DNA of 63,010 bases, counting the filler, from Asterionella formosa (lineage: Eukaryota): NCBI GenBank assembly GCA_002256025.1. It is 7 parts of 7 records of this genome, joined end to end, with 100 filler letters (N's around TTAATTAATTAA, not from the genome) between each part and the next. Parts side by side here need not be neighbours in the genome. Positions count along the whole stretch, not along the records: positions 27,085 to 35,999 come from NKIB01011462.1; 6 more parts are not named here. One strand, given 5' to 3'. Below, in pieces: positions 9,762-35,999 of the stretch (position 1 is its first letter; each line of letters starts with the position of its first letter). The notes under the pieces are model-generated. The model saw nothing but the letters and a program-made list of their open reading frames with translations, had not been told where the DNA came from and did no database searches. Both the position numbers and the translations under genes were made by a program.

Positions 9762-11165
9762 TCAGGGTGCTGGTCGTTGTAGTTCTTGTAGTTGTTTCTG
9801 TAAGAATGCATGGTGAACGCTCCAACCTAGGGTTGTCATCCGATTTGCCAACTCCGCCGCCGAGGCCAATTCGTACGTTACATATCTCAATCCAACTGTA
9901 TGACCTGTTTGTTTGGCAACGGCCATGGCTCGTTTTAAGGATTCTCGGCGAGAAGTGTTAGGTCCATTGATGTCCAATTCAGTGGGTTGGATGACCATTT
10001 TACGAAAGAAATTTTTCATTCGTTTGTCCACGACTGGCATGGTTGGATCTTGTCCCAACAAAATTTGTTTGGTACGTTGATTCAATGATTCTACATCTTT
10101 GGGAGACAATGATTTTTTGGTTGGTTTCATCATGGCTTCTGTGGCATTCACCACGGCGTCACTGACGCATTGCTCCCAATCCTCTGTGTTGCCAGAAAAG
10201 CGACGACTCAAGGTCAAATTCAAATCATAACGACGCCGTGATATGTCACTGTAGGGGTCATCGTCTTCCTCCTCCACATTAATGACACCAGCCATTTGAC
10301 GACACAAGAGCTCCAAGGCATATAGTGCCGTGTTTTCTTTCGTCGTTTCTCGCATAAAATCAATATTGGTGATATCCAATCTCCATATTTCTGGAAGTTC
10401 TAAAAATGAGTCTTCTTGAGAACGAAACAAAATGGTATCAATAAATGCCATCTTGAACCAATGGATCGGCGTTTCATCGACCTGTGGAGGCGGTATGGAT
10501 TGAATCCAGCGTTTCGTCAACTGCAAGTCCAACTTTTGCATCGCATACCAGTGCTGCTCCATTTCGACAGTGTATTGTTTGGCATGAACATGCTGAAGAT
10601 AGAAATTTGCGCCGTCTTGCTTGCATATTTCCGTCTTGTATAGTAGATACAGGAGGGAGTTGGTAGTATGCAACATGATGGTGGTAATATTGTGACTCCG
10701 AGTGTCCGCTTGTTGCTGAATCCAGCTCATGGTGCTTGCGGCTCGATCCGGCGATTCCAGTTGTTGCAGAGCCATGGCTGCCTTTTGCACCAAGGACGGA
10801 AGACGGCTGTCGGTCTTGTCCTCCTCCTCCTGTGTTACTTGCTGTACGTCTTGGTCCGATAGGAGAGGATGCAGATCCGGACGATTGGGTATCAGTTGTC
10901 GAATGTGTTCGTGCAGGTCCAACAGCAAGGACTTGACGGCAGCTAGTTGACCCACGACAGAGTCGCGAAAGGCTCGTTTTATAATCCACTCGAGGGCTGT
11001 TTTGTGGTCCAGCTGGTCGACAAAATCAGAAAAGGAAAGGGTACTCTCACGAGGAAAACCTGTCACAGTGAGGGTGTCAAACTCACTTGGGGCCGTCAAA
11101 AGAACGCGATGAAGCAGCGCAATGTCCGGCGGATGCTGCTGTGATGGTTGGACCAAGTTCACCAT
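9762..11165 (-). CDS. T-complex protein 11 (TCP11/SOK1)-like protein
   Basis: 467 aa uninterrupted ORF; segments LLLDLHEHIRQLIPNRPDL and LELPEIWRLDITNI resemble TCP11-family motifs (LPETLxLD type). Confidence 0.6.
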   Translation of the reverse strand: MVNLVQPSQQHPPDIALLHRVLLTAPSEFDTLTVTGFPRESTLSFSDFVDQLDHKTALEWIIKRAFRDSVVGQLAAVKSLLLDLHEHIRQLIPNRPDLHPLLSDQDVQQVTQEEEDKTDSRLPSLVQKAAMALQQLESPDRAASTMSWIQQQADTRSHNITTIMLHTTNSLLYLLYKTEICKQDGANFYLQHVHAKQYTVEMEQHWYAMQKLDLQLTKRWIQSIPPPQVDETPIHWFKMAFIDTILFRSQEDSFLELPEIWRLDITNIDFMRETTKENTALYALELLCRQMAGVINVEEEDDDPYSDISRRRYDLNLTLSRRFSGNTEDWEQCVSDAVVNATEAMMKPTKKSLSPKDVESLNQRTKQILLGQDPTMPVVDKRMKNFFRKMVIQPTELDINGPNTSRRESLKRAMAVAKQTGHTVGLRYVTYELASAAELANRMTTLGWSVHHAFLQKQLQELQRPAP

Positions 11166-11479
11166 TATCTTTCTCTCTTGTTAGTATGAATTGGGCGGCG
11201 CTAATAGTATTCGTCTCCTGGGGAATGTTGTAAATGTTGCTTGTCGTTTTATCACATTTAACTTCGCTCCTGGGGTTGAATGGCGCATTTACTTTTACGT
11301 ACCGGCAAAATTCATCATCAGCTATACCCCAGCTTGTAGCTGCGACATCATAGTTTTCATAGCGAATTGATCATCACGTTTTGTACGACTGATTTTGATT
11401 CGTCCGCTTTCGCTCGTCCCTTCTTTATAATTTACCGGTAATAGTTGAGCGATTGGACGCAGCTTGCAAAATTGTACCT

Positions 11480-11572
11480 CCAATATTGCGGTCATTTTGC
11501 TTAAACTAATATTTTAATCTTGGATAAAGATAGCTAAATCTTTAGTTTCAGCAATATTAACGCAACTTGCTG
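11480..11572. mobile_element. ~93-bp MITE-like element, copy 1
   Basis: Aligns with 56242-56335 (TTGCGGTCA.TTTGCTTAA.CTAA.ATTT.AATC...GATAA.GATAGCTAAATC..TAG..TCAGCAA.ATT...GCAACTTG.TG); right end CGCAACTTGCTG is the exact inverse of the left end of the other copy. Confidence 0.7.
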
Positions 11573-11898
11573 GTACCAGGGTACAGCATTGCACAGTGCA
11601 CAACTATAAATATTCATCACATGTCTATAAATAGCTTTTCCTGATGCATACATAGAACTTCACAATCATACTTGTATATGCACAGTATGTATTTATGTAA
11701 TAAGTGTTCTTTTGATGTTGCAACTTATTCTTGCATCTAAATAAACACGTCAGATACCGTAATCATACGATAAGCATCGGACCTTGAAAAAATGCGCGTA
11801 CACAGCACCGTGCAGGGTATACTAACTTTAGGTATCGGATGTTACAATCATGATGTGTTCATGAATTGACAAATAAACAAATTACTCTAGCTGCAGTT

Positions 11899-14800
11899 TC
11901 AACCTGTATCACCCAAGACGACCGCATTCAAATCGATGCAGCAATCGTCAATCACGCACTGTTCTGTATTGCCCAGAGGTAAATGCAACACAGCCGAAAC
12001 AGAACGAACTGCCGCGCGATCGCTTTTACGAAGGGCAGCGATTGGACTACTCTGTGTTCCGGTAGTCTCAAAGAAAATAAATCGACTCGTGCCATTCAAG
12101 GCTATAGCCGCTTTTCCTCGAAGCGTTCCCCCTTTCGCGAGATAGCACTTCCTTCCCAATGAATCCACGAAAATGATTCGTCTCCACTGGATTAGATGAA
12201 GAAGACTGAGATACGTATTTTGATATTGCGCTTCACCGGCTTCACTGTTGTCAGCACGTGCTGCAGCGTACCATCCACCTTGAAATCCAATTTTCCCGGG
12301 AACGACATGACCTTCACTGTTCAAAGTTACTGTTGTATCTTTAGATATTATCCCATCAAATGTAGTAAGCACCACGTCATATTCGGTGAATTTCTTCGTA
12401 GCAGCTCGGTTGCGTTCTGACAGAGGCATTGTTGTATGATTCAAGACAGAGTGGAACGTTCCAACTCTCAAAACCCTTTCCCACTGTTCCAAACATGCTT
12501 TTGAGCGAGCAACAACCAACGTTCCTCCATTCATCACCTCTGAATCCGGAATGGAGTGTAAATTTCTTTCCCCTTGATCTAGGAGAAGCTTCACAGTCAT
12601 TCTGCAAATCTGATCAGTCGTCATCGAGAAAATGATCACCCTTTCGTTCCGTTCCACCAACTCATCAAAAACAGCGTTAATCTTTTGCCCAAGACGTCCT
12701 GGACAATCAGCGAGAGGATCTGGGAATGAGTGCAGAGAGCGTTGTTTCCCACGCTGTGAAAATCGTCGGTTCTTCTCGGGTCGAGTTACGTTCAGAGGCT
12801 GATAGTGAAAGGAAGCACCGTCTTTGAGGACGATGTTGGCTGGAATCTCTTGCAAATAGGACATTCCATTTTCCTTGGACTTGACACGCCGTTGCCGCTC
12901 ATGAATCGTTGTGACATCAATGGTTTCTACTGTATCATTTAGGTCCGCACCACAGCCGCTCTCCAAGCAAGGCCCTGTGTTTTCTTGGTTGAAATGCGGG
13001 CTTTGCATATTTGCCTGGTGAAGAATCGGGGACTGTGAGCTGCTAAAAAGAGGACAATTGTTGGGTGATGGATGAGAACAGTCCAATGGTGATGGAGCCG
13101 AAATTTCTTCCAATGGTCGAGGCTCACTAGCCATAGAACTGTTGTCCAAGCTATCGTCCGCTTGGAGTTGAGCTTGATCCATTCCTCGTTTCGCGCTGGT
13201 AGTGGCAAGGCGCTTCGTATGACTTCGGTGGACAGCGATGATATCAGGCGAATGGTCGGCTCGCGGCGAATATGAATCTTCTCTTGCAGAGCCTCGAACG
13301 ATTTCGACAGGCGACGATACGTCGTCATCGTAAAATGGTAACCCATTGGGCTTATGACTTGTAGTGTCTGGTGAGAGACGAAACGCGTGTTTCCTAGAAG
13401 ATCCAAGTGATGTATTTTCACTATCTTGAAACCTTGGTGACTCTCTCCTTTCTGATTTCTCCGGAGATGACAGCAATGCCAACGACCTATCTTGAGTCGA
13501 CCCTTCGATTGTGAAATATCCAATTGCCTGTGGGTTGTGAAGCAAAGTCCGGTCACCAAAAGATTTTGAATGTTGTTTGAGTTGTTGGGTGACTTTATTG
13601 CTCAGGGAAACAGAAACCACGCCCTTGACGCTCATGGTTACTTTTCTCAAATCCTCCGATTTACAAACAATCTCGTTGACCATATCTTGTGCTTCAAAGG
13701 GATGGGGACTTGCATCATTTGTGGTTGCAATTGTAGGTCGTTCTGGATAAAACTTTGTTATTATTTCGTCAATTTCATCGGCTAGGCTTATACCAGAGGG
13801 AGGATATTTTAGTCCTTCCAATAATGTTTCATTGATGACATTTCCTACTTCAGAGCCGGCATAAATTGGGACACAGTTACGATCCAAAATTGTTTTGATA
13901 TCAATCGAACGTTCACCGTCGACACGCCCTTCAGCAACGGTGACAATTTGATGCAGTTCGGAATTATTTGTATTTGCAGTTTTACACGCAGTACACGGTG
14001 TTTTGATCCTTGTCATATTCTCATTGACTTCTTCAAAGTCTCGTAGTGGAGGTAGTTGTGTCTCCAAAAGTTTGCTTTTTTGTACCATAGTTTGAGCGGC
14101 TTGCAAGAATGAGTCGTCAGGTACACTGTTAGCACCTTTGTTAGCATCAATCAATCGTGTGGTGCAGGTCGCCGTATCACCTTGGAAACAATCCAAAGGC
14201 TCTGGGAATGAAAGCGGTGAGTATAGTTTCCCATACGGCGAAACTTGTTTGTTGACTTTGGATCCAGTCGTATTCATCGGCTGCGAGTGCAAGGAAGTAT
14301 TTCCATTGAAAATATCACTTGCAGGAATCGCCACGGAATAAGACATTAGATTTTCCTTCAACTTGCTTTGCCGTTTCTGTTCATGAATCATTTCATGAAT
14401 CATGGTGACATCAATAGTTTCCGCTGTATCATGGCGATCAAATCGTCGTTCGATTCCTAAGCTTGACTTGGAGTCTTTCACATTGAAATCGGGGCTCGGC
14501 ATTGTCGAATGGCACTCAATCGGAGACTGTGAGTCGCTAAAAAGAAGACAATTATTTGGTGATGGAAGGTGATCACAGTCCAATTGCGATGGAGACAAAG
14601 TTTCGCCCAAGGGTCGAGTCGCACTAGCCATAGAACAGTTATCAGAGCTATCTTCAATTCGGAGACGAGATATATCCAGTCCTCGTTTCCCACTGGTGGT
14701 GGCAAGTCGCTTTGTATGATTTGTGCGGGCTGAATTACTATCAGGTGAGTGATAGGTTCGCGGCGAGTATGACTGCTCCCTTGTCGAACCTCTAACTATT

Positions 14801-17800
14801 TCCACAGGCGAAGTTGTCGATGCGTCATCATCATAAAATGCAAACCCAGTGGAGTTATGACTTGGGGTCCCTGGTGAGAGACGTAACGCGTGTTTCTTGG
14901 TAGATACATGTGATGTATTTTCACGATCCTGAAATCTCCCAGGTATGTCATCTCCTGCTATTGCCTTTCTATTTTCTCTTCCCTCAGCGGGCGAAAGTAA
15001 GGCCAAAGATGTATCTTCAGTCGACCCTCCGATTTTGTAGGTTTCATTCCTCGTAACGGAGCCTCCGCCGTCTTTATGATGAAATTCTTTTAGCTTGTCG
15101 TCTGGTGCATCATGGTGCAACGCGCAGTCACCTTCAGCCATTTTTGAACTCGGGTTAGAACGAGGAGTTACTTCAATGTTCTCGGAACTGAATGGGCGCC
15201 CCACGAGGAGCGCATTTACTCTTGCAAGGTCGGCTAGTTTTCGTTGATGTGACTTCGAGTTAAAGGCATGTAATCCCTCTGGAAATTTTTTCTCAAAGGT
15301 ACTGATCGCATGAAAAACGAACAGAGCATACTTTTCTTTAAACAATTGTTCCTCCGATCGTGAATTTTTCTGAAACACGATGGATTCAGTCGTAACTCCT
15401 TTTTCATCCGGTTTGAAACTTGTATGATCTGCAGGGGCAACCGCTGGTACTTCTGGATGGCGCTTGGACAAAATTTTGTGTGTTTCATCGGTAGGGCCAA
15501 CAGCCACTGGGTAATATTTCTGTTGAATCATAAGTTTGTCATTTTCTCCGTCATTGATGATATTTTCGAATTCGGAACTTGGATCACTTGGTACACGATG
15601 GTCACGCATCGATGCTGACAGGTTGTTCGGTCTCGTTTCTCCCCTGTATCCTTCATTGACGTCAAAAAACTCATTGATTTCTATGCTTGGTGTTTTTGTT
15701 GCATTGTACCCACTTGACAGGCTGAGTTCAAAGTCTCGTAGTCTAGGTAGTTGTGTCGCTACAAATTTGCTTTTTTGTACCATAGTTTGAGCAGCTTGCA
15801 AGAATGAATCGTCAGCTTCATTGCTATTGATTTTGTAAGAATTACTCATTTCTTCGAGGTTGACTTGGATTTTTCTTTCAAAGCAATTCAATGGTTCTGG
15901 AAATGAAAGCGGATTGAATATGTCTTCACACGGCGCATCAGATTGAACGTTCTTATTTCCAGTCATTTGCATAGAATTGAATTGCAAGGAAGCACCATCC
16001 TTAAGAATAGTTCTGGCAGGAACCTCGTGGATTCCACCTTCCTTCCACTTGATACGCTGTTTCTGCCCATGAATCATGGTGACATCAATAGTTTCCGCTG
16101 TATCATGGCAATCAAATCCTCGTTCAACTCCTGAGCTTGACTTGGAGTCTTCTATATTGAAATCGGGGCTCGGCATTGTCGAATGGCACTCAATCGGAGA
16201 CTGTGAGTCGCTAAAAAGAAGACAATTATTTGGTGATGGAAGGTGATCACAGTCCAATTGCGATTGAGACGAAGTTTCGTCCAAGGTTTCAGGCGTATTA
16301 TCCATAGAATAGTTATCAGAGCTATCTTCAATTCGGAGACGAGAGACGTCCATTCCTCGTTTCCCACTGGTGGTGGCAAGCCGCTTTGTATGATTTGTGC
16401 GGGCAGAATGACTGTCAGGCGAATGGTAGGTTCGTGGTGAGTATGACTCTTCCCTTGTCGAACCTCTAACTATTTCGACAGGCGACGACATGGATACGTA
16501 ATCATCGTGAAATGCAAACCCAGTGGAGGTATGGCTTGCGTTGCCTGCTAGGAGACGTGACGCGTGTTAACTAGTAGGTCCAATGGGACTAATTGTCGCT
16601 TCCCTAAAGTCTGGTAAGTATGTCATCTCTTAATTGTGACTTACTCGTTTTTTTGGTCTCATCTGGTGAAAGCAATGCCAAAGATGTATCTGGCATCGTG
16701 GTTTCATTGGTTAGCTTTTCATCTTCAAAGTTGGAGTCGGTCTGGGAGATGGCTGCAAGGCCGGCAAGGAGCGCATTGACTCTTCGCAGCTCCTCCAATT
16801 TTTGCTTGTGCGACATGGAGTTGAAGGCTTTCAAGCCTTCCGGATGATTCTCCTCGAAGGTTCTAATGGCATCAAAAACAATGATGGCGTACTTTTCTTG
16901 GAAAAGCTGCCCCTTCTCTCGCAATTTCAGCTGAAACTCTCGTGTTTCCAATGTATTGTTGTCAAGTGATGGTTGTAGTCTTGGATGTTTTGCGCTAGCA
17001 ATGCGTAGTCCTTCTGGGTGGAACTTTGAAGAAATCTCGCATGTCTCATTGGTCGTTATCCCATCACTATCATAAGTGGTCGGATATATTGGTTCAAGCA
17101 TGGTTTCATCCTGTGCTCCAGAATTGATGAAATGTCCGACTTGAGATCTTGCCTCATTTGCTAGCGAACAATACGACGTTCGGCCGTCTGCATGCTGTTG
17201 GGCGTTGTCGACAACCTGATGGTATTTCTCGACGTCTCGTGGTTGACTTTGTTGCGATTTCAAGGGTTTACTCTTTTGAATCATAGTTCTAGCGGCATGC
17301 AAAAACGATTCTTCAGCTTCAGTATTCGTGATTTTGTTAGCAGTAATCGTTCTTGTGGTGTTGACATCTGCATGACTTCTGTATCCATCCAGAGATGATA
17401 GCGCAGAGTATTGTTTACCGCGGCGGACGACTCTTTGTACTTTTTCGGTTCCAATCGCTTTCCGAGGCTGGATGTTGATGGAAGCACTACTCTTCATGAC
17501 TACATTGGCCGGAATCTCCTTGAAATAGGACCGTCCATCGCCTTCTAATCTTTCATCACTAGTACACCCTCGTATATTGTCGGCACACGGGAGCTGCTTA
17601 GTTTTGGTTGTCGCCTTGTTGTATACAGCAGTCGACAAGTTATGTATCCGTTCCGTTTGATCACTCGGTTGTTCCGGGCCTTGTTGCGATTCCATCTGTT
17701 TGTTTTTTAGTATCATTGCTTGGGCGGCTTGCCAGAACGAGTCGTCAGTGTTACTGTACGTTGTACTACTACTGCTTTTGTTGTTACTGGTAGTCATGTT

Positions 17801-17920
17801 TCTCTTGTAGGAGGTCTCCTTCCATGACAATGTCGATGATAATAATCCATTGTTCCTGTTATTTTCAGAACCAAGCGTCGTTTCTTGAGATTCGTCAAAC
17901 ACGGTAACAAGAGTTGGCAT
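11899..17920 (-). CDS. ~1974-aa protein with long internal repeats and C-terminal degenerate SNF2_N-like domain; exons 17920-16645 and 16547-11899
   Basis: ORFs 16604..17920 and 11899..16491 share repeat motifs (DDSF.QAAQ.M; LF.EKYA..VF.AI.TFE...PEGL.AFNS.SH..KL..L.RVNALL.G) and join in frame through a 97-nt GTAAGT...TTAAC...CCTAG intron (16644-16548). C-terminus has GGTLVV...LEQW, YDVVLTTF and LLHLIQWRRIIFVD, as in the Rad5/Rad16-type SNF2 N-lobe. Confidence 0.75.
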
Positions 17921-17963
17921 GATGTTGGTTTGGAATGGATCGCTTCTGAAAGCTAATTAATAA

Positions 17964-18063: not shown

Positions 18064-18963
18064 CAGCCACACTTGAACCAGACGTATTAGATGTACTGAA
18101 TACTGGTTGGTAAAATCAGTACCAGGTACCGGTACTACCGGTAGTACATCCTGTCTTCCATCATGATGAACCAAGATAATGTACTACCGGGTAGTCTAAC
18201 TGGTGCTCCGAGTACCAGTACCTGGGAGTACCTGGTACCGGAATACATGGACTTTTCCCAAAAAGGGTTGAAAAAGAGAAAACTATTCGTAAATTCAGCT
18301 GCCCATTGGCATTTGCACCACTATTACTTAGAAAAACCAAAATTGCACCATCAGACTACCCATATATAGAATCCGTGCTACTGCCTGCACTACCGTAGTG
18401 ATATTTTCTACATAGGATCACGATCAGATTCATATAAGATATGTATTTTGTAGTACTAGCCAACGGCCGTAGGCTACCCTGTACATACATGTAATGGGAC
18501 ATACCTGTACTGATAAAATATTGCAAGCATTCTGTATCATAGCATACCGTATATAGGTTACTAAGGCCCCGTCTTACGGTGCCCGAATTACGAAGATTCA
18601 GTCGCCCGGATACCTGTTGGGCGTTGAATCTTCGTATTTTTGTCCCTTACGGGCTAAATAACTCGCAAATCCCCCCCGATTACGAAGATTAATCTTTGTT
18701 TGCCCGAATATTTCGAGGGTCATCCCCGATGTTGACCCAATCTTCGTAGTTTCTTGAACAATCTTCGTTTCCCGAAGATTAATCTTCGGGCAAACGAAGA
18801 TTGTCTCCACCAATCAGAATGGCGGAAACAATTTATAATCGTCATCACATATACTGATGATATAGTATTCGATACTTCGATACTTCTATTGTAGTATTAT
18901 TGTCATTATTATTACCGTAGATATTATTAATATAATAATTCTTACTTTTAATATTTTTGTTTT

Positions 18964-20433
18964 ATGATAATAATTTGTAACATGACGACTCCGCCAATGC
19001 TATCATCAACCTTCCTGGCACATTATCAACAGTGTGTGCAGCCATGGAAGCAACAATGGTTGTCATGGCAACTACCAGCAGCCTTGCCAGCTGCGTTGCG
19101 AAATGAGCTGGTTTCTCAGTTCCATTTGGAAGCTCAATCTGAAAGAGGGAATCAGCAATCGCCGTCCAACAGCAATTGCCATTCAACAACATCTGCTAAG
19201 CGAAAAAGAAAGAAACGACCTCTGGTGTCAAGGGAAGAGTCATGTTGGTGGAAGAAGTTCCTAACAAACGAAAAGCGCATCTTACAATTGGACATTAGCA
19301 CATGGGAAGCAAGACTCTTTCGCAAAATTTTTCGTCTTCCATTCGACATATTCTTGAAACTGTATGATATGACAATATCTAATGGTTGGTATGATCCACA
19401 CAGGAAAGATTGCACCAATCTTCTGTGCAACAAGGACCTTGAGTTGCTCCTCCTGGGTGTTCTCTACACTCTAGCAACTGGTGCTTCCCATTTGTATGTG
19501 TATATTCAAACTGACATCTCTAAAGAGGTACACCGAAAATTTTTCATTCACTGGACTTCAAAGTTTGCAGAAAAGAAGGATGAATATGTATACATAGTGA
19601 GAGAGGAAGAGGAAGATGATGACCAACTGCAACGAATTCTAAATGATTACAGTTCCTTTGGGCTTCCAGGTTGTATAGGCTCAGTCGATTGTGTGCACAT
19701 TGTATGGAATCGATGTCCTGCCTACCAGAAGAATATATTTAAAGGTTCCAAGGGGTATCCCTCAGTTGTTTTTGAGGTGGTTTCTGATCACAGAAGAAAG
19801 ATTTTATCAATCAGCTACCTACACCCAGGAACAAGAAATGACAAACACATAGTCAAGTTTGATGCTGCTGTTTCCAATCTACACGATAGAAATTTGTTTC
19901 TTGGCAGGCAAGAGTGGAATGTGCTCACTGTTGAGTCTTCTATTACTTGTAAAGGCTACTATTTCATTTGTGATGGAGGGTACCTACGATGGCCAGTGTT
20001 GATTTGTCCAATTAAATACGGCAATGAACATGGAAAAGAAAGGGCATGGGGTATGATGGTGGAGTCAGTTCGAAAAGATATTGAATGTACTTTTGGGATA
20101 TTGAAAATTCGATGGTTATTTCTTAAGAACTGGAACAACTTGTCTCGACCTGAGCATATCGAAAATGCGTTCACATCATGCTGTATGCTCCATAACATTC
20201 TATTAGAAAGCGATGGTTACCTTGACTGTGAAAGTTCTGACACACAGCATATTGCGCATACTGTGCAAGGTGACTGCATGGAATTGCATGTTATTTCACA
20301 CCGCAACTTCTTGAATGAAACAGTGGCTGGGGGTAAACAAAGTCAATGGTGGAATAGAGTTCAACTACTTGTTGATCATTATGACGAATTTCGTAAAAGA
20401 TGTAACAAGAAGCAAGATAGCAAGATAGCTTAA
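18964..20433 (+). CDS. PIF/Harbinger (Plant_tran-type) DDE transposase
   Basis: Open 489 aa ORF with GLPGCIGSVDCVH, KGYPSVVFEVV, GTRNDK, ICDGGYLRWP and ESVRKDIECTFGILK; catalytic D-D-E present. Confidence 0.92.
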   Translation: MIIICNMTTPPMLSSTFLAHYQQCVQPWKQQWLSWQLPAALPAALRNELVSQFHLEAQSERGNQQSPSNSNCHSTTSAKRKRKKRPLVSREESCWWKKFLTNEKRILQLDISTWEARLFRKIFRLPFDIFLKLYDMTISNGWYDPHRKDCTNLLCNKDLELLLLGVLYTLATGASHLYVYIQTDISKEVHRKFFIHWTSKFAEKKDEYVYIVREEEEDDDQLQRILNDYSSFGLPGCIGSVDCVHIVWNRCPAYQKNIFKGSKGYPSVVFEVVSDHRRKILSISYLHPGTRNDKHIVKFDAAVSNLHDRNLFLGRQEWNVLTVESSITCKGYYFICDGGYLRWPVLICPIKYGNEHGKERAWGMMVESVRKDIECTFGILKIRWLFLKNWNNLSRPEHIENAFTSCCMLHNILLESDGYLDCESSDTQHIAHTVQGDCMELHVISHRNFLNETVAGGKQSQWWNRVQLLVDHYDEFRKRCNKKQDSKIA

Positions 20434-27084: not shown

Positions 27085-27993
27085 GGGGGGGGCGGGCGTG
27101 GTTGGCTGTGAAATTACACCAGGAGTGGAAGCAGTATTGATAGTGGGAGGGGAAGGTAGCATGGACCTCGTAGAGGTTGATGTATCCCGTGTAGTATCAA
27201 GTTGTATCGTAAGTAGGTGAGTACTGACTGAAGTGGTGTCCGATCTCAGTTTCCGTGGTGATGTATAATTACCGATATTTTTAGGGCGATTATAAGCGAT
27301 TATCAACCTTTGGATGGTACATTGATTTCCGGAGAAGTTCCGTAGTGTGGTAAGAATTGGTTCTTTTCCCGGGGAAAATATAGTGTCTCTGAAAATTTGT
27401 TGAATATGAGATGATGGAGGGTTGTTCGGATGGAATGGCATGTGGAGGAACACACATTGTTCTGTGTGTGTGTCCGTTCTTTGAGTGGCCGTGTTGGTTT
27501 TGTTCGATTTGTTAACACATAGCTGTTTGATGTATGTATTAAAGATGGGTATAAGGGTTTTAGCCAAATAACCTTGGACCTGTAGGCGATTGTAGAAAGA
27601 ATGGATTGCAGTTTTGAAATGTGTGTCGACCGTTGTTAAATGGTAAATCCGGTGAATCATGCCAGCAATAAGACCACGAAGGACACCAGGAGGGTGTGCA
27701 CTATGTTGTGGTATATAGAGATAGGGATTCATAGATTTTTCGAATAGTGTTGTATCAATAGAACGGGTATGTTTATTGATAGAGATTGTGAGATCCAGGA
27801 AAGTTGTTGATAATCGTCGTGGTTCTGCATTCCATTTAAGTATGCCAAAATTATTCATCAAGCTGATAAACGAGTTGTGTGATTTTTCATCCTCGATATA
27901 GGTAGTTGATGTAGGGACCCAGATTATAAAGCAATCATCAATATACCTTCTGTAGAAGGATATTTGTGAAAACGTTGGGATGGTTTGTATCTC
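27085..27993 (-). mobile_element. Penelope-like element (PLE) copy A: 5'-truncated reverse transcriptase, no GIY-YIG endonuclease seen
   Basis: Open frame from 27993 reads EIQTIPTFSQISFYRRYIDDCFIIW...FLDLTISI...TLFEKSMNPYLYIPQHSAHPPGVLRGLIAG...IIAYNRPKNIGNYTSPRKL, typical PLE RT core and thumb, followed by an S/T/P-rich tail rather than an endonuclease. Confidence 0.88.
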
Positions 27994-28021
27994 TTAGGGT
28001 TAGGGTTAGGGTTAGGTTAGG
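27994..28021 (+). repeat. Telomeric repeat tract (TTAGGG)3(TTAGG)2
   Basis: Directly read; lies exactly at the 5'-truncation point of PLE copy A and the 3' end of PLE copy B. Confidence 0.92.
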
Positions 28022-28601
28022 TGTATGGGCTACAATGACTATTATCCAAGTGACAATGAGGTGACTACTTAAGTTGCCAAAAAGTAATGAGACTAATGTT
28101 TACTTTTCGCCTGAAGGGGCTTCATCAGTTGGCTTGGATCTGTAGTCTTGTAGTACGTGAGTCCTGGTGCGTGCGGGGGAGGGGGCGGCAGACGTGGTTG
28201 GCTATGAAAATGCACTGGGAGCGGAGGCAGTATTGATAATAAAGAAGGAGGGTAGTATGGACCATGTAGAGGTTGACGTATTCCGTTCGGTATCAAGTTT
28301 TGTTGTAAGTAGGTGAGTACTGACTAACGTGGTTTTCGATCTCAGTTTCCGTGGTGACGTATAATTACCGATGTTTTTGGGGCGGTTATATGCAATTATC
28401 AGCCTTTGGATAGTGCATTGATTACCAGAGTAATTCCGTAGGGAGGTAAGTGGTGGTTCTTTCTTCGGGGAATATATGGTGTCTCTGAAAATTCGTTGTA
28501 TCTGAGATGATGGAGGGTTGTTCGGATGAAATGGCATGTGTAGAAATACACATTGTTCTGTTTTGGTATCCGAACTTTTAATGGCCGTGGTGGGTGTGTC
28601 C
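28022..28601 (-). mobile_element. PLE copy B: 3' end (RT C-terminus, hammerhead, 3' terminus)
   Basis: Homologous to copy A (EQCVFLHMPFHPNNPPSS.IQ.IFRDTI...CTIQRLIIAYNRPKNIGNYTSPRKLRS) with many third-position differences; TAG at 28202-28204 where copy A has CAG. Confidence 0.85.
28076..28133 (-). ncRNA. Type I hammerhead ribozyme
   Basis: Minus strand: GCCAA-CUGAUGA-A-GCC(CCUUCA)GGC-GAA-A-AGUAA(ACAUUAGUCUCA)UUACU-U-U-UUGGC; core nucleotides and stems I, II and III are all present; cleavage triplet UUU. Confidence 0.82.
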
Positions 28602-29975
28602 GAAGACTCAACAGTGAGCACATTCCACTCTTGCCTGCCAAGAAACGAATTTCTATCGTGTAGATTGGAAACAGCTGCATCAAACTTGACTATGTGTTTG
28701 TCATTTCTTGTTCCTGGTTGTAGGTAGCAGATTGATAAAATCTTTTTTCTGTGATCAGAAGCCACCTCAAAAACAACTGAAGGATACCCCTTGGAACCTT
28801 TAAATAAATTCTTCTGGTAGGCAGGACATCGATTCCATCCAATGTGCACACAATCGACTGAGCCTATACAACCTGGAAGCCCAATGGAACTGTAATCATT
28901 TAGAATTTGTTGCAGTTGGTTGTCATCTTCCTCTTCCTCTCTCAGTATGTATGCATATTCATCCTTCTTTTCTGCAAACTTTGAAGTCCAGTGAATGAAA
29001 ATTTTTCGGTGTACTTCTTTAGAGATGTCAGTTTGAATATACACATACAAATGGGAAGCACCGGTTGCTAGAGTTTAGAGAACACCAAGGAGGAGCAACT
29101 CAAGGTCCTTGCACAGAAGATTGGTGCAATCTTTCCTGTGCGGATCATACCAACCATTAGATATTGTCATATCATACAGTTTCAAGAATATGTCGAATGG
29201 AAGACCAAATTTTTTTTCGAAAGAGTCTTGCTTCCCATGTGTTAATGTCCCATTGTAAGATGCGCTTTTCGTTTGTTAGGAACTTTTTTCACCAACATGA
29301 CTCTTCCCTTGACACCAGAGGTCGTTTCTTTCTTTTTCGCTTAGCAGATGTTCTTGGATGGCAATTGCTGTTGGACGGCGATTGCTGATTCCCTCTTTCA
29401 GATTGAGCTTCCAAATGGAACTGAGAAACCAGCTCATTTCGCAACGCAGCTGGAGAGGCTGCTGGTGGTTGCCATGACAACCATTGTTGCTTCCATGGCT
29501 GCACACACTGTTGATAATGTGCCAGGAAGGTTGACAATAGCGTTGGCGGAGTCGTCATGTTACAAATTATTATCATAAAACAAAAATATTAAAAGTAAGA
29601 ATTATTGTATTTATAATATCTATGGTAATAATATTGACAATAATACTACAATAGAAGTATCGAAGTATCGAATACTTTATCATCAGTATATGTGATTATG
29701 ATTATATATTGTTTCCGCCATTCTGATTGGTGGAGACAATCTTCGTTTGCCCAAAGATTAATCTTCAGGAAACGAAGATTGTTCAAGAAAATAAAAAGAT
29801 TGGGTCAATATTGGGGATGACCCTCGAAATTTTCGGGCAAACGAAGATTAATCTTCGTGATCGGGGGGGATTTGCGAGTTATTTAGCCCGTAAGGGACGA
29901 AAATACGAAGATTGAACACCCAACAGGTATCTGGGTGACTGAATCTTCGTAATTCGGGCACCGTAAGACGGGGCT
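28602..29975 (-). mobile_element. Second, truncated and disrupted copy of the Harbinger element (left TIR plus 5' part of transposase)
   Basis: Closely similar to 18565-19940 in inverse orientation; TIR ends at 29975 followed by TTA; TGG>TGA at 29289-29291, further stop/frameshift; breaks off at 28602 into PLE sequence. Confidence 0.92.
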
Positions 29976-30444
29976 TTAATATGGCAATTATTTCCGTCTT
30001 GTGAAGAATGAGAGAGTTCTTTATCTTGCAAGAAAAACGCGACTTCATGTTGTTATCGGCGATCTCAATTTTCGTTGTCATTATTAGTGTTATTACTTTA
30101 CTTCTTTTACGATTGTATTTTTCATGTCATTCTCAATACAGATAGCAAGTAGCAAAGCGTCGTTCTCTATTTTCGTGGAGATAATTCGTATTTTCGTCAT
30201 GGTCAAGGTTGCAACAACATAATGAAGGATTCTCCAGCTGCTCACTGCCACTACCTGTCGTCTGATGTGTTTTCTATGTACAAAAGAATCACAAAATGGT
30301 AGCTAAATATTTATACACTAGTGCCTACGAGAAGAAAAAGAATTATAGCACGTTACTTTGTCTATAACAAGAAATTATTAGGTGCTTGGTTCCACCTCAA
30401 GAAAAATGTATAGGGGGGTCCAGGACAATGAAAAATACGGTATT

Positions 30445-30592
30445 TCAAACGGAATCATTGATATTCAAAATTAGCGCATAAAAATTCTTAGTTCCAGGGA
30501 ATTTCGGCAACCCAAAGAATATATCAAACGGAATCATTGATATTAAAAATTAGCGCATAAAAGTTCTTAGTTCCAGGGAATTTCGGCAACCC
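30445..30592. repeat. Tandem duplication, 79-bp period
   Basis: TCAAACGGAATCATTGATATT.AAAATTAGCGCATAAAA.TTCTTAGTTCCAGGGAATTTCGGCAACCC at 30445 and 30524. Confidence 0.9.
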
Positions 30593-30904
30593 TAAGCAAT
30601 ATTTTAATTTTTGCCTAGGGATTAAAATCCAGGAACCTCAAGGTTGCGGCCCCGGCTTAACCCTAGTTCGGAGAAAATATCTTTAGGGTTGTAAAACGGC
30701 GTGGAACAGGGAGTTTCCTACTATGAATTCTCATGATTCGAGTGTCCATTTGAATATTTGAATTAAATAGGAATCGGGGCCAGATTGATGGAGTTCCATT
30801 TAAAAAAAATATGATATTTAAACGTTTATACTTTTTCTACGTTACTGAATGTAGAGATAATTTAGCTCAATGGCAAAACACTTATATAAATTAGGAGTAT
30901 GCCA

Positions 30905-32059
30905 ACATAAATGCTACAATTGCTACACATTTTTATCACCCTACATTAAAAGCAAGAGTGGAACATATTGTAAGCATATGTGAAGCATGTCAATGTTCAA
31001 AATTATCTGGTACTGGTTTTGGTGAACTTCCACCCAGGAATGCATTGTTATTACCATGGTCAGAAGTCGCAGTAGATCTAATTGGTCCATGGAAGATAAC
31101 AGTGGCTGCTCAAGCAATTGAATTTCGTGCTCTAACTTGTATTGACACAGTCACCAATTTAGCAGAAATTTCACGTATCAACAATAAAACATCAGAATAT
31201 ATTGCGATGAAATTTGAAAATGATTGATTAGCCAGATATCCCCGTCCAGAACGTTGTATACATGACAATGGAGGTGAATTAACTGGTGTTCCTTTCTTAC
31301 ACATGTTAGTATTGAATGGAATTAAAGATGTGACTACTACAGTAAAGAATCTACAAGCAAATGCTATCTGTGAACATTTACATCAATCTATCAGCAATAG
31401 TCGACAAGTTATGTTAAAGGCTCATCCTCCAAAGAATGAATTTCAAGCCCAAAATATTGTGGATACATGTTTTGCAGCTGCGTCATATGCAGCTCGAGCT
31501 ACTATTCATAGTATAGTACGTATTTCACCAGGAGCATGGGTTTTTCATCGTGATATGATATTAAATATTCCTTTGATTACAGATTTACAATTAATACATC
31601 AACGTCGACAAGTGATAATTGACGAACGTTTACGTCGAGTTAATTTTCGTCGTCGATCTCATGATTACAAAGTGGGTGACGAGATTTTAATATTATTGGA
31701 TAATCCTACTACTTTGGATGATCGTGGACGAGGTCCTTGTACTATTATTCAAGTACATGCCAATGGTACAATTACTTTTCAATGCACTATGCACATTACA
31801 GAACGAATTAATATTCGTCGTATCAAACCTTTTCATAGGTAAAAGGTTTTCCCTCAAGTGTGGGAGAGTGAGCAATCCTGCACATCGATACAGATGTTTA
31901 TGGGGATGTGATGTTTATGGGGTTAGGGTTATATCAAATATATCGGAGCTCGACTAACACCTATTGTAAACTCTAATGTCAACTTGGGAAACAAGTTGTA
32001 TATAAGATTAATTAGCTCATATATTCAACAAATACTACTACTTCTAGTTAGATACTTCA
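30905..32059 (+). mobile_element. Gypsy relic: integrase, PPT and 3' LTR (same family as 23536-26733)
   Basis: HFYHP...CEACQ zinc-binding part, VAVDLIGPW, IHDNGGEL, NAICEHLH; in-frame TGA at 31225-31227; LTR 31869-32059. Confidence 0.9.
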
Positions 32060-32085
32060 CCTGGTACTGGCATGATAGACTTCAT

Positions 32086-32427
32086 TCCTAACCCTAACCC
32101 TATCTTCATGACTTGATTCTTCATGACTTACTACATGCTATCCTCATGACTTGACTATTCATGATTTACTTTTATATTTACTATGACTATGCTAAATATT
32201 TGATTCTTCATGACTTTCTACATACTATTCATGGATTACTTCTATATTTACTATGACTATGCTCAATATTTGATTCTTCATGACTTTCAACATACTACCG
32301 GTATCTTCATTACTTGATTCTTCATGACTTCCTATGTGTTATATCTTCATGACTGTCTTCTTCATGACTTACTACATATAACCGGGTGGTTTGGGTGTGA
32401 TACCATATATGATTTAGGGTAAGGGTT
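32086..32427. repeat. TTCATGACTT-based minisatellite bracketed by telomere-like motifs
   Basis: About a dozen (C)TTCATGACTT variants; CCTAACCCTAACCCTA at the left edge and TTTAGGGTAAGGGTT at the right edge. Confidence 0.75.
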
Positions 32428-32788
32428 GCATCAGACATTCGAATACCGTTGGACATGTCGGGCCCATAAGGCTTTTATCAACACAATCACCATTATGGGT
32501 AGTGACATTTTGTCATCGGCGTTTCTATCAATGTAGACCCTGATATATAAAACTGCACAAGAATAATCAAAACACAAATTGCTCTTTTCCAGCAGTGCTC
32601 ACATTTCTCCTTATCTGCAGTGGATGTTTCCTGATCCCAGGCATTGGGATTGACTGCGATTTGAGGAGTTAAGTATTATATACTTAGGTGTCGGAAGTAA
32701 ATTCAATTCTTAAAACACGACAAAAATTTGCAAAATCTAGTTTGTGGAAGGAATCAACAACAACCACAGCAAAAAATAGCATCATATC

Positions 32789-34480
32789 ATGAATACAGAG
32801 AATGGCCAGAACATGCAGGAAGACGTTGAACGAGCTGACAATCGTCCAACTACTGATGAAAGCGAGCGCGAGCCCTACATTCTTATTGATGATTTGTTGC
32901 CTTGCATCCAATCTTCCATTCGTCAGCCTGATGTATTTACTCCACCAAACCCAACCACTCTGTCTAGAACTTTATCTTGGCAGAAGCGTGGGGGTGTTAA
33001 TCAAACTTCCCACTCCAGCCCAGATATGTTGCCAGACAGCAATGATGTTGTTGTAGAGGAAGGGTCCTTTCCTGAACAGAAACTCAGAATCTCGGGGAGG
33101 AATAAAACCAAGAAAACAGGCTCTGTTTCAAGAGTGAAGAAACAACCTGGAGTGAATTGCGACAGTGATTTTGCTAAGTTGCACTCTGAGGAAGCAAAAC
33201 TTGAATTTGAAAGTGCTGATACCCTGTCTCATGCGCCTCCAGTTAATGTTGGGATGCCAGAAATTTATCCTGGAGCATTTCCTCAAGGCAGTACTTCGGC
33301 TCCTGCACGATATCTTTCGACTTCTATGGAGAGTACTACTACTAGAACCCCGATTAGTGATGGTGGTCTGGTTGTTGAACTAGAAGCCCAAATTGTTGAA
33401 GAAACTGAAGTTTTTCAAGCATTTGCCGTACAAGAAGTGACAAAACCAGCTCAAGGAGGAGAAAGCTTGTCACAACCTAAAGGTAAAAAGAAATGGATCA
33501 GTGCAATTTCAACTGTGGTCATGATAGTCACAATTGTGACAGCTGTTCTTGTTGTCAAGTATCGGAAACCATCCAATAATGAGGTTATGACAACAAGTGC
33601 TCCAACAGTGGCTGCTTCTCCTGCTCCCAGTGTTCAGGAAGTAGAATGGGTCCAACTTGGGCAGACTTTGACTGGAGTAGCTAGCTATGATCAGTTTGGC
33701 ACTTCGGTAGCACTATCTGGGAATGGAACCATCATGGCCAGCGGAGCAGTAGTATCTGATTACAATCAAACTGTTGACTCTGGTCAGGTTCATGTTTTTG
33801 TGTGGGATGGTGCCCGATGGCAAAATTTTGGGTCTCCGATTGGCGGTGTAGCAGCAGAGGATCATTTTGGTACTTCTGTGTCACTCTCCTTTGATGGGCT
33901 AACATTGGCCATAGGTGCAGACTTGAATAACAATGAGGCAGGTTATGTTCAAGTATTTAGTTTTAATGGTACAGATTGGCAGCAAGTTGGTCAAGATTTG
34001 AATGGAACTGCTGGTGAAAAGTTGGGATTTTCCGTAGCACTCGCTGGCAATGGTACCATATTAGCTGCTGGAGCACCTTTAAATGACTACAATGGCACTG
34101 ACTCTGGTGCTGTTCATGTTTATGTCTTAATTGACAACCAATGGAGTCAAATGGGGAACACCATTTTTGGAGAGGTATCATATGATAAATTTGGGATAAA
34201 GGTTGATATTTCTTTTGATGGTCTTACTTTGGTTGCTGGTGCACCAATGAATGAAGAAAATGATTTTGTTGGTGCTGGAAAACTTCGAGTATTTCATTTT
34301 GATGGTCAAGACTGGCAAAAAGTTGGTCAAGATGTAGATGGCAAGTCTACTTCTGATAGGTTTGGGTCTTCTGTGTCAATTTCTGGAGATGGTACCATCA
34401 TTGTTGGTGGAGCGCCTTTTAGCAACAATGGTGGAAGTGAAATTGGCAATGTTCGTATATTTTCATTTGACAAACATTAA
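32789..34480 (+). CDS. Type II membrane protein with FG-GAP (integrin alpha-like beta-propeller) repeats
   Basis: 563 aa; disordered N-terminus with PGAF motif, TM WISAISTVVMIVTIVTAVLVV, then five repeats of W.Q.G..L.G...D.FG.SV.LS.DG..L..GAP...G.V.VF. Confidence 0.88.
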   Translation: MNTENGQNMQEDVERADNRPTTDESEREPYILIDDLLPCIQSSIRQPDVFTPPNPTTLSRTLSWQKRGGVNQTSHSSPDMLPDSNDVVVEEGSFPEQKLRISGRNKTKKTGSVSRVKKQPGVNCDSDFAKLHSEEAKLEFESADTLSHAPPVNVGMPEIYPGAFPQGSTSAPARYLSTSMESTTTRTPISDGGLVVELEAQIVEETEVFQAFAVQEVTKPAQGGESLSQPKGKKKWISAISTVVMIVTIVTAVLVVKYRKPSNNEVMTTSAPTVAASPAPSVQEVEWVQLGQTLTGVASYDQFGTSVALSGNGTIMASGAVVSDYNQTVDSGQVHVFVWDGARWQNFGSPIGGVAAEDHFGTSVSLSFDGLTLAIGADLNNNEAGYVQVFSFNGTDWQQVGQDLNGTAGEKLGFSVALAGNGTILAAGAPLNDYNGTDSGAVHVYVLIDNQWSQMGNTIFGEVSYDKFGIKVDISFDGLTLVAGAPMNEENDFVGAGKLRVFHFDGQDWQKVGQDVDGKSTSDRFGSSVSISGDGTIIVGGAPFSNNGGSEIGNVRIFSFDKH

Positions 34481-34954
34481 AAAAAGCTTAAGCATATTTA
34501 TTCTACAAAAGAATACTAGCTATGTATAATATCTCATTTGTACTCCCCTATTTCTGGTGGGCATGTCTTTCATTGTGCTACCTGTTGACCTGACCACCTT
34601 TTGAGATAGATGATTTCCTTAGTGAAGGCCAATCTTAACAGAGATTCAAAATATTTTTTGTTGTATCTTCAGAAAAAAATGAATCTTTACAGAGGTACAT
34701 TTCACAAATATATCTCTGTATTTACTGAGTAGATTTTTCTATGCACAAAGTAGGTTGCTTGACATTGGCAAGTTGAAGTTAGCAGTTAGCTATTTCATTT
34801 CAGTAGTTAGCAAATGAAGTCAGCAGTCAGAGAATATTTCAAATTTTCAGCAAATCAAGTCAGCAGTGAGCAAGAAGTAGTCCGAGTTCAGCAAGTTAAA
34901 GTTGGTAAACAGCTATTCTGCTATAAAAGGTGGCAGCGCTTTTCCGTTTGAGGG

Positions 34955-35999
34955 GTGATGATTGCTGATGCAGGAGGTATCACTACGATTCTGTCTGCAA
35001 TGAAGATTCATTCCTCAAATGCTACTGTGCAAGAAAAAGGTTGTGGAGTACTTTGTTGCTTAGCTTTTAATGACAACAACGAGGTGATGATTGCTGAAGC
35101 AGGAGGTATCACTACAATTCTATCTGCGATGTATAACCATTTCTCCAATCTTAATGTGCAATACTGTGGTTGTGCAGCACTTATGAAGTTGGCTACTAAT
35201 AATGAAAGCATCAAGCTGATAATTGCCAATGCTGGTGGAGAAGATGCAATTAAATCTGCTATTCGAAATCACTCATCCAATGCTGGTGTCTGGGAAAAAG
35301 GTCATGAAGCACTTCTTATGATTCAACCAATTTCAACAACATCCAAGAGAGCGCATGTTCCTTCCTTAACCACTCCAACACCAAGCAGTAGCAATTCAAC
35401 TGATCTCATTTCTGAAGGTCAATCGAAAATGAAGGAAGCTATCGACAATGTGAAATCAAGACCAATCGAGCTTTCTGCTGAATTCATTACTTATTGTACA
35501 AACAATTTTGCTGAAGACAGAAAACTTGGTCAAGGAGCTTTTGGTGCTGTTTACAAAGGCCAAGATGACAATCGGGATTTTGCTGTTAAATGTATTCTAT
35601 TCAATATTGCTGTTGAGAAAAATAAGGTGGAGGAAGTTACCAAGGGTTTTAAAAGAGAATTGCAGGTGAGCTCATTTGTGGTATCAAATATTGCATTTCG
35701 TTTCAAGTCTTTATGTTTCTCATTCTACTGTCATACTGTTTCAGGCCTTGAAGAGGTTCCGACACCCCAATATTGTAACTTTGTATGGCTATCATTTGTC
35801 CCCTAATTCGCTTTATCAATACCTTGTGTTTGAGTATGCATCCAATGGTTCACTTGAGACATTCTATAGGAGTGAACAAAAAAGGGCAGGTCTCTCAAGT
35901 AAGATCTGACTTCGAATCATGTTCGAAATCTTTTGTGCCATCCACTACCTTCATACTGGTACAAAGGACAACCTTGGTCTGTTTCATCGTGATATCAAG
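34955..35999 (+). pseudogene. Armadillo-repeat + IRAK/Pelle-like Ser/Thr kinase fragment; intron 35666-35744; premature stop; cut off by scaffold end
   Basis: ARM repeats (IAEAGGITTILSAM..H.SN..VQ..GC.AL..LA); TNNFAEDRKLGQGAFGAVYKG, FAVK, HPNIVTLYGY, LVFEYASNGSL, HYLH, FHRDIK; GT..AG intron restores frame; TGA at 35907-35909 interrupts the kinase. Confidence 0.8.

What the first reader, a model, noticed from the sequence alone, without database searches (positions are those of the whole stretch)
28076..28133. Complete type I hammerhead ribozyme overlapping the end of the PLE ORF, with a UUU cleavage triplet
Seen: CUGAUGA and GAAA core, 5-bp stem I, 3-bp stem II with an extra A, 6-bp stem III. 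If the TAG at 28204 is read as CAG (as in copy A), the RT frame runs through the core (..PTDEAPSGEK*) and stops in stem III at 28102-28100. ATCCAAG upstream could pair with CTTGGAT downstream to extend stem I around a loop containing the palindrome ACTTAAGT. It lies ~55 nt from the telomeric tract. Established: PLE terminal repeats often carry type I hammerheads and NUH permits UUU, though it is uncommon. Inference: it processes tandem transcripts or helps present the RNA 3' end to the telomere.
Basis: partly seen in the sequence, partly recalled or inferred. Interest (0 to 1): 0.75.

Follow-up and report, generated by a model that had tools for sequence, protein, structure and literature searches.

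The report
Hammerhead ribozyme of telomere-attaching retroelement
This is a genuine self-cutting RNA motif (hammerhead ribozyme) at the tail of a broken copy of a telomere-attaching jumping gene, probably in a diatom; the arrangement is already described, though this lineage's ribozymes share a U at the cut site and an extra conserved motif that deserve a bench test.

Summary
Confirmed: a complete type I hammerhead at 28133-28076 (- strand), cut predicted after 28081, 54 nt before (CCCTAA)n, ending a 5'-broken endonuclease-less Penelope-like element (PLE). The own genome has 16 intact copies; 3 of 58 columns vary against 124 of 278 upstream. Equivalent hammerheads with covarying stems sit in 50 of 83 loci of distant RT relatives. 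This is a known kind (Cervera & de la Pena 2014), and the scan noted it before on another contig of this genome (e1-7577398). U17 is the lineage norm (19 of 21 families) and common in published PLE hammerheads (24 of 56, UUU included). The ORF overlap is incidental: 8 of 19 copies stop before the core, as do 39 of 39 relative hits. New side results: a GGAUAAC-like motif ~30 nt after the cut in 30 of 38 families (shuffles 2.5); 2 of about 10 telomere-capped 5' junctions lie within 4 nt of the cut, one exactly at it and carrying the ORF1 leader. That is suggestive fossil evidence of cleavage in vivo. Cleavage itself is untested; folding predicts a competing inactive state.

The parts
28076..28133 (-). 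Type I hammerhead ribozyme (stem Ia 5 bp, core + extra A9.1, stem II 3 bp, stem III 6 bp, UUU; cut predicted between 28081 and 28080)
   Evidence: conservation; covariation in relatives
28121..28128 (-). Catalytic core CUGAUGA plus extra A
   Evidence: extra A in 20 of 21 families; published PLE consensus CUGANGAH
28081..28083 (-). Cleavage triplet UUU (U16.2, U16.1, U17)
   Evidence: U17 in 19 of 21 families
28088..28099 (-). Loop III, 12 nt; one base longer than in every other intact copy (insertion at about 28099)
28142..28147 (-).
   Evidence: MFE in copies C2710 and C8875 under hammerhead constraint; weak overall, 16 of 25 above shuffled control
28133..28139 (-).
28041..28047 (-). GGAUAAU: lineage-wide conserved GGAUAA(C) motif, 33 nt after the cut; function unknown
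   Evidence: 30 of 38 families at >=6/7 against shuffled mean 2.5, maximum 8
27994..28021 (-). (CCTAA)2(CCCTAA)3 telomere-complementary tract joining copy B's 3' end to 5'-truncated copy A
28022..28603 (-). PLE copy B: RT C-terminal (thumb) coding remnant with in-frame TAG at 28204-28202, plus the 3' terminal repeat
   Evidence: hhalign to RT alignment A1, probability 99.8, E 7e-28
27085..27993 (-). PLE copy A: 5'-truncated RT frame (303 aa, YIDD motif), capped by the telomeric tract, running off the contig end before its own hammerhead
28602..29981 (-). 5' part of a PIF/Harbinger-like DNA transposon, broken inside its transposase and joined in frame to copy B; second copy at 18559-19940
   Evidence: Pfam Plant_tran and DDE_Tnp_4; self-BLAST 95% over 1383 nt

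Best explanation
The motif is the self-cleaving hammerhead of the terminal repeat (pLTR) of a two-ORF, endonuclease-less Penelope-like retroelement that attaches to chromosome ends. Complete units are repeat - ORF1 - RT ORF - repeat, about 3.5 kb (shown: C13746; the repeat-ORF1 junction also in C13957). A transcript that starts in or upstream of the first repeat is cut after U17, which frees the element RNA and sets its 5' end about 65-180 nt before the ORF1 AUG (inferred). The same motif in the downstream repeat must often stay uncut, because the (CCCUAA)n tract that pairs with the G-rich telomere overhang and primes reverse transcription lies 3' of it and genomic copies run through it (shown for the DNA, inferred for the RNA). 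I therefore expect a slow or partial cleaver; U17, a short stem II and a competing inactive fold fit that. Telomerase then caps the cDNA end, which gives repeat-bracketed, 5'-truncated copies such as copy A (inferred; published model). This copy is a dead, now internal relic: 5' end lost, in-frame stop, ordinary genes distal to it. The ORF overlap is read-through of a low-complexity tail, not a designed feature.
For: Exact geometry. Near-invariance in the genome: 3 of 58 columns vary against 124 of 278 upstream among 8 variant copies (copies not independent). Same motif on the sense strand at the same place in distant relatives: 33 descriptor hits in 31 of 76 loci against 1 in 152 shuffled loci; 55 model hits in 50 of 83 loci, 53 on the RT strand; 8 of 10 pairs with two-sided changes, covariation 0.79 against 0.245 shuffled and at most 0.14 slid. 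Unit anatomy: (ORF1 overlapping the RT ORF in the -1 frame in 10 of 10 intact loci of 12 examined; no GIY-YIG pattern). Telomere-capped fragment beginning exactly at the first base after the cut and ending in the ORF1 leader (5 contigs, one event); a second event 3-4 nt upstream (C14520). [quoted passage not shown]
Against: No cleavage was measured. Secondary-structure models put the hammerhead fold 3.1-3.8 kcal/mol above the ensemble in short contexts at 25-37 C (under 1% populated) and lower in a long one; the family consensus is an inactive fold (core-trapping hairpin plus over-extended stem III). RNA-library contigs run through the cut site and none ends there (contigs cannot show ends). 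The exact-cut junction is a single event inside a T run with 1-nt microhomology to the telomere repeat, and the second junction lies upstream of the cut, which needs an uncut template or added bases. Sequences in the covariation count were picked by a pairing descriptor, so the 98% paired is partly by construction. Only 6 of 38 family tails show 7 or more nt of CCCTAA repeat within 130 nt, so telomere targeting is shown for this genome's family, not for the whole lineage.
Confidence: 0.72

Rival explanations
1. The fold is kept mainly as a structural 3'-end signal (RT binding, presenting the telomere-pairing tract) and rarely or never cuts in vivo; catalytic residues persist because the fold needs them.
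For: All genomic 3' ends retain the uncut motif and tail; RNA contigs are continuous across the cut; the predicted ground state is inactive; PMC6431247 calls cleavage auxiliary; PMC4209133 does not rule out functions other than cleavage.
Against: Core, G10.1-C11.1 (21 of 21), A15.1-U16.1 (21 of 21) and an unpaired H17 are kept across RTs only about 40% identical, as expected of catalysis; one telomere-capped junction maps to the cut.
Confidence: 0.17
2. The ribozyme cuts tandem transcripts at both ends into monomers that circularise (retrozyme-like); the 1.1-kb truncated, telomere-bracketed unit of the young subfamily is a non-autonomous circle or array.
For: In two lake RNA libraries contigs of the young subfamily covering the last 1.1 kb reach depth 300 and 1005, against about 2-8 for copy-B-specific and transposon parts; the same truncated unit occurs in three contigs with long telomeric runs; circles are a published hypothesis.
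Against: Contig depth cannot separate DNA, copy number and expression, and no silent control stretch was laid; circles and tandem arrays give the same contig; the other two libraries show low depth; junctions lie mostly far from the cut.
Confidence: 0.07
3. The overlap of RT frame and ribozyme is functional (translation through the core controls cleavage, or the PTDEAPSGEK tail matters).
For: The last 25-30 codons before the in-stem stop are open in several older copies, and C8875 reads through unbroken.
Against: The youngest, ORF-intact subfamily, which dominates the RNA contigs, stops before the core; 39 of 39 relative hits stop 91-510 nt upstream; the conserved RT ends about 70 codons earlier.
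Confidence: 0.03

Closest known systems
Type I hammerheads of telomere-associated, endonuclease-deficient PLEs of fungi and protists (Cervera & de la Pena 2014, PMC4209133)
   Same: [quoted passage not shown]
   Different: This family's sequence is not shown to be among theirs (their Fig. 3C is a picture I could not see). The lineage-wide U17 and the GGAUAAC motif are not mentioned in the text I read.
Coprina / Athena (EN-) PLEs and Terminons (Gladyshev & Arkhipova 2007; Arkhipova et al. 2017; seen only through PMC8557442, PMC6431247, PMC13159263)
   Same: No endonuclease, hammerhead followed by reverse-complement telomeric repeats, 5'-truncated copies capped by telomeric repeats, head-to-tail chains.
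   Different: Two ORFs with a -1 overlap (Athena-like; Coprina usually has one ORF, with exceptions); clade placement not tested; unit only about 3.5 kb, no accessory ORFs.
Minimal dimeric hammerheads of metazoan EN+ PLEs and non-LTR retrozymes
   Same: Core with extra nucleotide; U17 frequent (24 of 56 listed).
   Different: Those have almost no helix III, a long helix II and work as dimers; this one has a 6-bp helix III, a 3-bp helix II (2 bp in many relatives) and could fold as a monomer.

Membership tests
Type I hammerhead ribozyme | Core CUGANGA and GAAA with G10.1-C11.1 and A15.1-U16.1 | tested here: met
Type I hammerhead ribozyme | Three helices, open ends in stem I, supported by covariation | tested here: met
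   (rows chosen by a pairing descriptor; shuffled-locus control)
Type I hammerhead ribozyme | NUH cleavage triplet | tested here: met
   UUU; NUH rule as stated in PMC3884650
Type I hammerhead ribozyme | Match to a curated Rfam hammerhead model | tested here: not met
   no hit; a limit of the models rather than a defining failure, since core and helices are all present
Type I hammerhead ribozyme | Stem I - stem II tertiary contact | tested here: inconclusive
   distal stem I ambiguous; PMC4209133 also found none in protist and fungal PLE hammerheads
Type I hammerhead ribozyme | Self-cleavage | not testable with these tools
   only contigs, no raw reads; indirect junction evidence
Penelope-like element | PLE-type RT (DKN motif, G.AMG motif, Y.DD, thumb) | tested here: met
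   consensus of alignment A1 compared by eye with Fig. S1 of PMC8557442; homologs carry PF28514 and PF26215; the local Pfam copy gave no RT hit
Penelope-like element | Partial-tandem terminal repeats carrying the hammerhead | tested here: met
   C13746 has hammerheads 3495 nt apart; L103, L104, L139, L140, L146 likewise carry two
EN- telomeric PLE (Coprina/Athena) | No GIY-YIG endonuclease | tested here: met
   no pattern in the ORFs of 12 loci (simple pattern); RT homologs end shortly after the thumb
EN- telomeric PLE (Coprina/Athena) | Reverse-complement telomeric repeats 3' of the hammerhead and capping 5' truncations | tested here: met
   for this genome; only 6 of 38 families show CCCTAA tracts
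EN- telomeric PLE (Coprina/Athena) | Location at a present chromosome end | tested here: not met
   this copy has about 7.9 kb of other sequence, with ordinary genes, on its distal side; other copies end in long telomeric runs at contig ends
Coprina clade specifically | RT phylogeny grouping with named Coprina elements | not tested
   no named reference sequences were available as tool records; the tree holds only unnamed relatives

The most novel reading that the evidence does not exclude
This PLE lineage keeps a deliberately weak hammerhead (U17, short stem II, competing trap fold) so that the upstream copy cuts and sets the RNA's 5' end while the downstream copy usually survives to keep the telomere-pairing tail. 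Telomere-capped insertions that start at the cut are the genomic record of that cleavage, and the GGAUAAC motif about 30 nt after the cut is an undescribed RT-binding or translation signal exposed by it.
Probability: 0.25. Interest if true: 0.6.

Novelty: new member of a known kind. Interest (0 to 1): 0.33.

Why it matters
The motif is expected for this class of element. What PLE hammerheads do in vivo is still open (PMC8557442: 'still unclear'). This family offers a test: a monomer-capable ribozyme, natural U17 and C17 lineages, a conserved downstream motif, and a telomere-capped insertion starting at the predicted cut. If more such junctions or RNA ends were found, they would be direct evidence that the ribozyme defines the 5' end of the RNA copied onto chromosome ends by a telomerase-related enzyme.

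Tried and rejected
Rfam, whole window at gathering score and 27900-28400 at E<=10: no hammerhead hit. Local Pfam found no RT family in copy A or 6 homologs; PDB sequence search gave only weak hits, E>=0.06. and model R1 used a mis-registered structure string and were discarded; searches are the corrected versions (the window row is still off by one column in A3). Model R2 was trained on U17 rows only, so its 34 of 36 clusters with U17 are biased; two clusters (L193, L197) are doubtful; I rely on the descriptor count instead. Four of 37 relaxed-descriptor hits (L099:3609, L112:446, L124 minus strand, L147:1038) were set aside as off-position. Of 33 loci without a model hit, 27 have 264 nt or less after the RT match; of the other 6, three hold hand-found hammerheads (L146 GUU, L196 UUC, L167 GUC with a core change), L157 and L165 showed none, and L141 showed no core in the pattern scan (part had an indexing bug, redone in 91). 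A general stem Ib in relatives is only weakly supported by folding (16 of 25 above shuffled upstream). Sequencing runs: only contigs of small share from freshwater metatranscriptomes were offered; they cannot show ends, strand or level. The sigma-70 scan is irrelevant to a eukaryote. The tree is the quick, unfinished search. Three key papers were not held.

Full report
Observation. The window is a chain of contigs joined by N spacers; the finding lies on contig C11462 of the own genome (window 27085-35999). On the - strand the motif reads stem I GCCAA (28133-28129), CUGAUGA (28128-28122), an extra A, a 3-bp stem II with a 6-nt loop, GAAA (28108-28105), a 6-bp stem III, UUU, and UUGGC (28080-28076). 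It is the only full three-stem hit in the window. Rfam misses it, and unconstrained folding gives another structure, so the case rests on comparison.

Surroundings. The hammerhead ends a 580-nt remnant (copy B, 28603-28022) that encodes the thumb end of an RT (hhalign probability 99.8) with an in-frame TAG. It is followed by (CCTAA)2(CCCTAA)3 and by a 5'-truncated copy A, whose frame runs off the contig. Upstream, copy B is joined to the broken middle of a PIF/Harbinger-like transposase, and ordinary genes follow: the copy is dead and internal. Copy A's protein has 176 homologs at E<=0.001 among proteins of 532-2000 residues; of the 120 listed, the named eukaryotic ones are from the diatom Chaetoceros tenuissimus. 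The alignment of 53 of them shows DKN, G.AMG and Y.DD motifs and ends shortly after the thumb, like the PLE rows of Fig. S1 in PMC8557442 (compared by eye). The host is probably a diatom (inference).

Own genome. The 271-nt query has 47 matches; a pattern search finds 16 intact hammerheads in 15 contigs against 2 control matches; three more copies are damaged or cut (C13061, C9463, C15005). Among 8 variant copies, 3 of 58 hammerhead columns vary against 124 of 278 upstream (the copies are related, so the nominal p of 7e-10 overstates it). C13746 holds a whole decayed unit, repeat - ORF1 - RT - repeat, with hammerheads 3495 nt apart, and C13957 shows the repeat followed by a short leader and the ORF1 AUG. 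Many copies end in CCCTAA repeats and several are capped by them at the 5' break.

Relatives. A metagenome scan kept the best 80 of 488 confirmed stretches, giving 76 loci; 7 more came from genome contigs. A descriptor allowing any base at position 17 gave 37 hits in the 76 loci: 33 at the terminal-repeat position in 31 loci and 4 set aside, against 1 hit in 152 shuffled loci, + strand only. A covariance model found 55 hits in 50 of 83 loci, 53 on the RT strand; most of the 33 misses are contigs that end too early. On 15 aligned families 8 of 10 pairs show two-sided changes, covariation 0.79 against 0.245 in shuffles and at most 0.14 in slid registers (rows were chosen for pairing). In 10 of 12 loci examined both ORFs are intact; in all 10, ORF1 starts 65-180 nt after the cut and overlaps the RT ORF in the -1 frame, and no GIY-YIG pattern is present.

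The UUU triplet. Among 21 family representatives U17 occurs in 19 and C17 in 2, the extra A in 20, and G10.1-C11.1 in all. Hand inspection added one U17 and two C17 cases. On a quick RT tree the three C17 rows included fall in one subclade. In Fig. S3 of PMC4209133 I count U17 in 24 of 56 metazoan PLE hammerheads, C17 in 25, A17 in 6, G17 in 1, with UUU in Crassostrea. So UUU is not unusual for a PLE; this lineage is more uniformly U17 (Fisher p 2e-4, families not independent). That U17 cleaves more slowly than C17 is recalled, not from a call.

The ORF overlap. Of 19 copies examined, 8 have a TAA about 10 codons before the core, among them the youngest ORF-intact ones; C8875 reads through; the window copy does so only past its TAG; the rest are frameshifted or truncated. 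In 39 of 39 relative hits with the RT end upstream, the stop lies 91-510 nt before the core. The RNA-library contigs of highest depth are of the early-stop subfamily. The overlap is incidental.

Flanking structure. In two other copies a stem Ib (GACUAC/GUAGUC or part of it) is preferred. The family consensus fold is inactive: UGAAG/CUUCA traps the core and stem III slips into the U run. The hammerhead fold holds under 1% of the secondary-structure ensemble (tertiary contacts and Mg2+ not modelled). Across families the sequence GGAUAA(C) is conserved 17-56 nt after the cut, mostly 25-36: 30 of 38 match at >=6/7 against a shuffled mean of 2.5, maximum 8 of 500 shuffles; the motif was picked after seeing the data, but GATAA and GGATA are also the two commonest 5-mers, in 25 and 24 of 38. 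It is mostly not predicted to pair upstream in relatives. One literature search listed 7 papers, none holding GGATA or GGAUA; the 2007 and 2017 Arkhipova-lab papers and Lunse et al. were not held and may describe it.

A possible record of cleavage. Five contigs carry (CCCTAA)n joined to the first base after the predicted cut; they share flanks and are one event. That fragment ends in the leader found before ORF1 in C13957, so it derives from a repeat that stood in front of a unit. C14520 is a second event, joined 3-4 nt upstream of the cut. I count about 10 independent telomere-capped 5' junctions, at roughly -3120, -2180, -1033, -1005, -903, -780, -194, -35, -3 and 0 from the cut (hand tally; C9463 left out as ambiguous). 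This is suggestive only. Search one search found no paper holding 5 of 6 terms on this point, a weak search. RNA-library contigs cross the cut without ending there, which shows uncut RNA, religated RNA or DNA.

Mechanism. Shown: fold potential, conservation, position in the terminal repeat, unit anatomy, telomeric junctions. Inferred: cleavage of the upstream repeat sets the RNA's 5' end; the downstream copy often stays uncut so that the CCCUAA tract can pair with the telomere overhang and prime the RT; telomerase caps the product. Confidence about 0.7; rivals are a mainly structural role, circle formation, and a functional ORF overlap.

Known status. PMC4209133 (parts 1-2 of 4 of the text, parts 1-2 of 3 of the supplement; Fig. 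3C not visible) describes type I hammerheads with large helix III in fungal and protist EN- PLEs and monomeric cleavage of a fungal one. PMC8557442, PMC6431247, PMC13159263, PMC6765202, PMC3884650 and bioRxiv 10.64898/2026.07.22.740005 were seen as passages; PMC3138052 passages added nothing. The scan's earlier notes on other contigs of this genome reached the same filing. Verdict: a new member of a known kind, interest 0.33; the lineage-wide U17, the GGAUAAC motif and the cut-site junction are the parts worth a bench test.

Noticed in passing
window 28041-28047 (-) and 30 of 38 relative families: Conserved GGAUAA(C) motif about 30 nt after the hammerhead cut; in several relatives it heads a small hairpin. 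Could be an RT-binding, translation or promoter signal.
   Followed up: partly
L030-L034 (G000 C11899, C6226, C2800, C2798, C14284): An LRR-like gene is broken and patched with an 85-nt PLE piece running from the ORF1 leader back to exactly the hammerhead cut, then capped with telomeric repeats; one event, duplicated five times.
   Followed up: partly
window 28202-29074 (-): In-frame chimeric frame of 290 codons: front half of a PIF/Harbinger-like transposase fused to the PLE RT thumb; deletion or template switch not decided.
   Followed up: no
G000 C2710, C3952, C15319; runs X1, X3: A 1.1-kb truncated, telomere-bracketed unit of the young subfamily recurs in three contigs; contigs of this subfamily reach depth 300-1005 in two lake RNA libraries. 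Possibly an amplified or highly transcribed non-autonomous unit.
   Followed up: partly
L104, L107, L110, L124, L130, L140, L146, L168, L194, L195: ORF1 overlaps the RT ORF in the -1 frame in 10 of 10 intact units, suggesting programmed frameshifting.
   Followed up: no
L146:244 and 4191: Hammerhead with an insertion of about 110 nt in stem III, no extra A, GUU triplet.
   Followed up: partly
L095, L114, L135, L197: Core variants at positions 3-4 or 6 (CCGA, UCGA, CUGU) in otherwise well-formed hammerheads of relatives.
   Followed up: no
L021-L028, L181-L183, L185-L187: An old PLE tail, telomere-capped inside loop II, duplicated in at least ten contigs beside ARM-repeat-like coding sequence.
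   Followed up: partly
L178:2740-2884 (C13920) and C14531: A 134-nt internal RT fragment bracketed by telomeric repeats on both sides, suggesting priming inside the ORF at a CTAAC microhomology.
   Followed up: no
L192-L198: PLE relatives sit in seven contigs of six bacterial metagenome-assembled genomes, most on short contigs; probably eukaryotic contamination.
   Followed up: no
window 9762-17956 (-): Very long ORFs (472, 1555, 450 aa) with internal repeats and no Pfam match.
   Followed up: no
window 31920-31930, 32090-32101, 32415-32427: Scattered short telomeric repeats between a mobile-element-like region and the FG-GAP gene, distal to the PLE copy.
   Followed up: no
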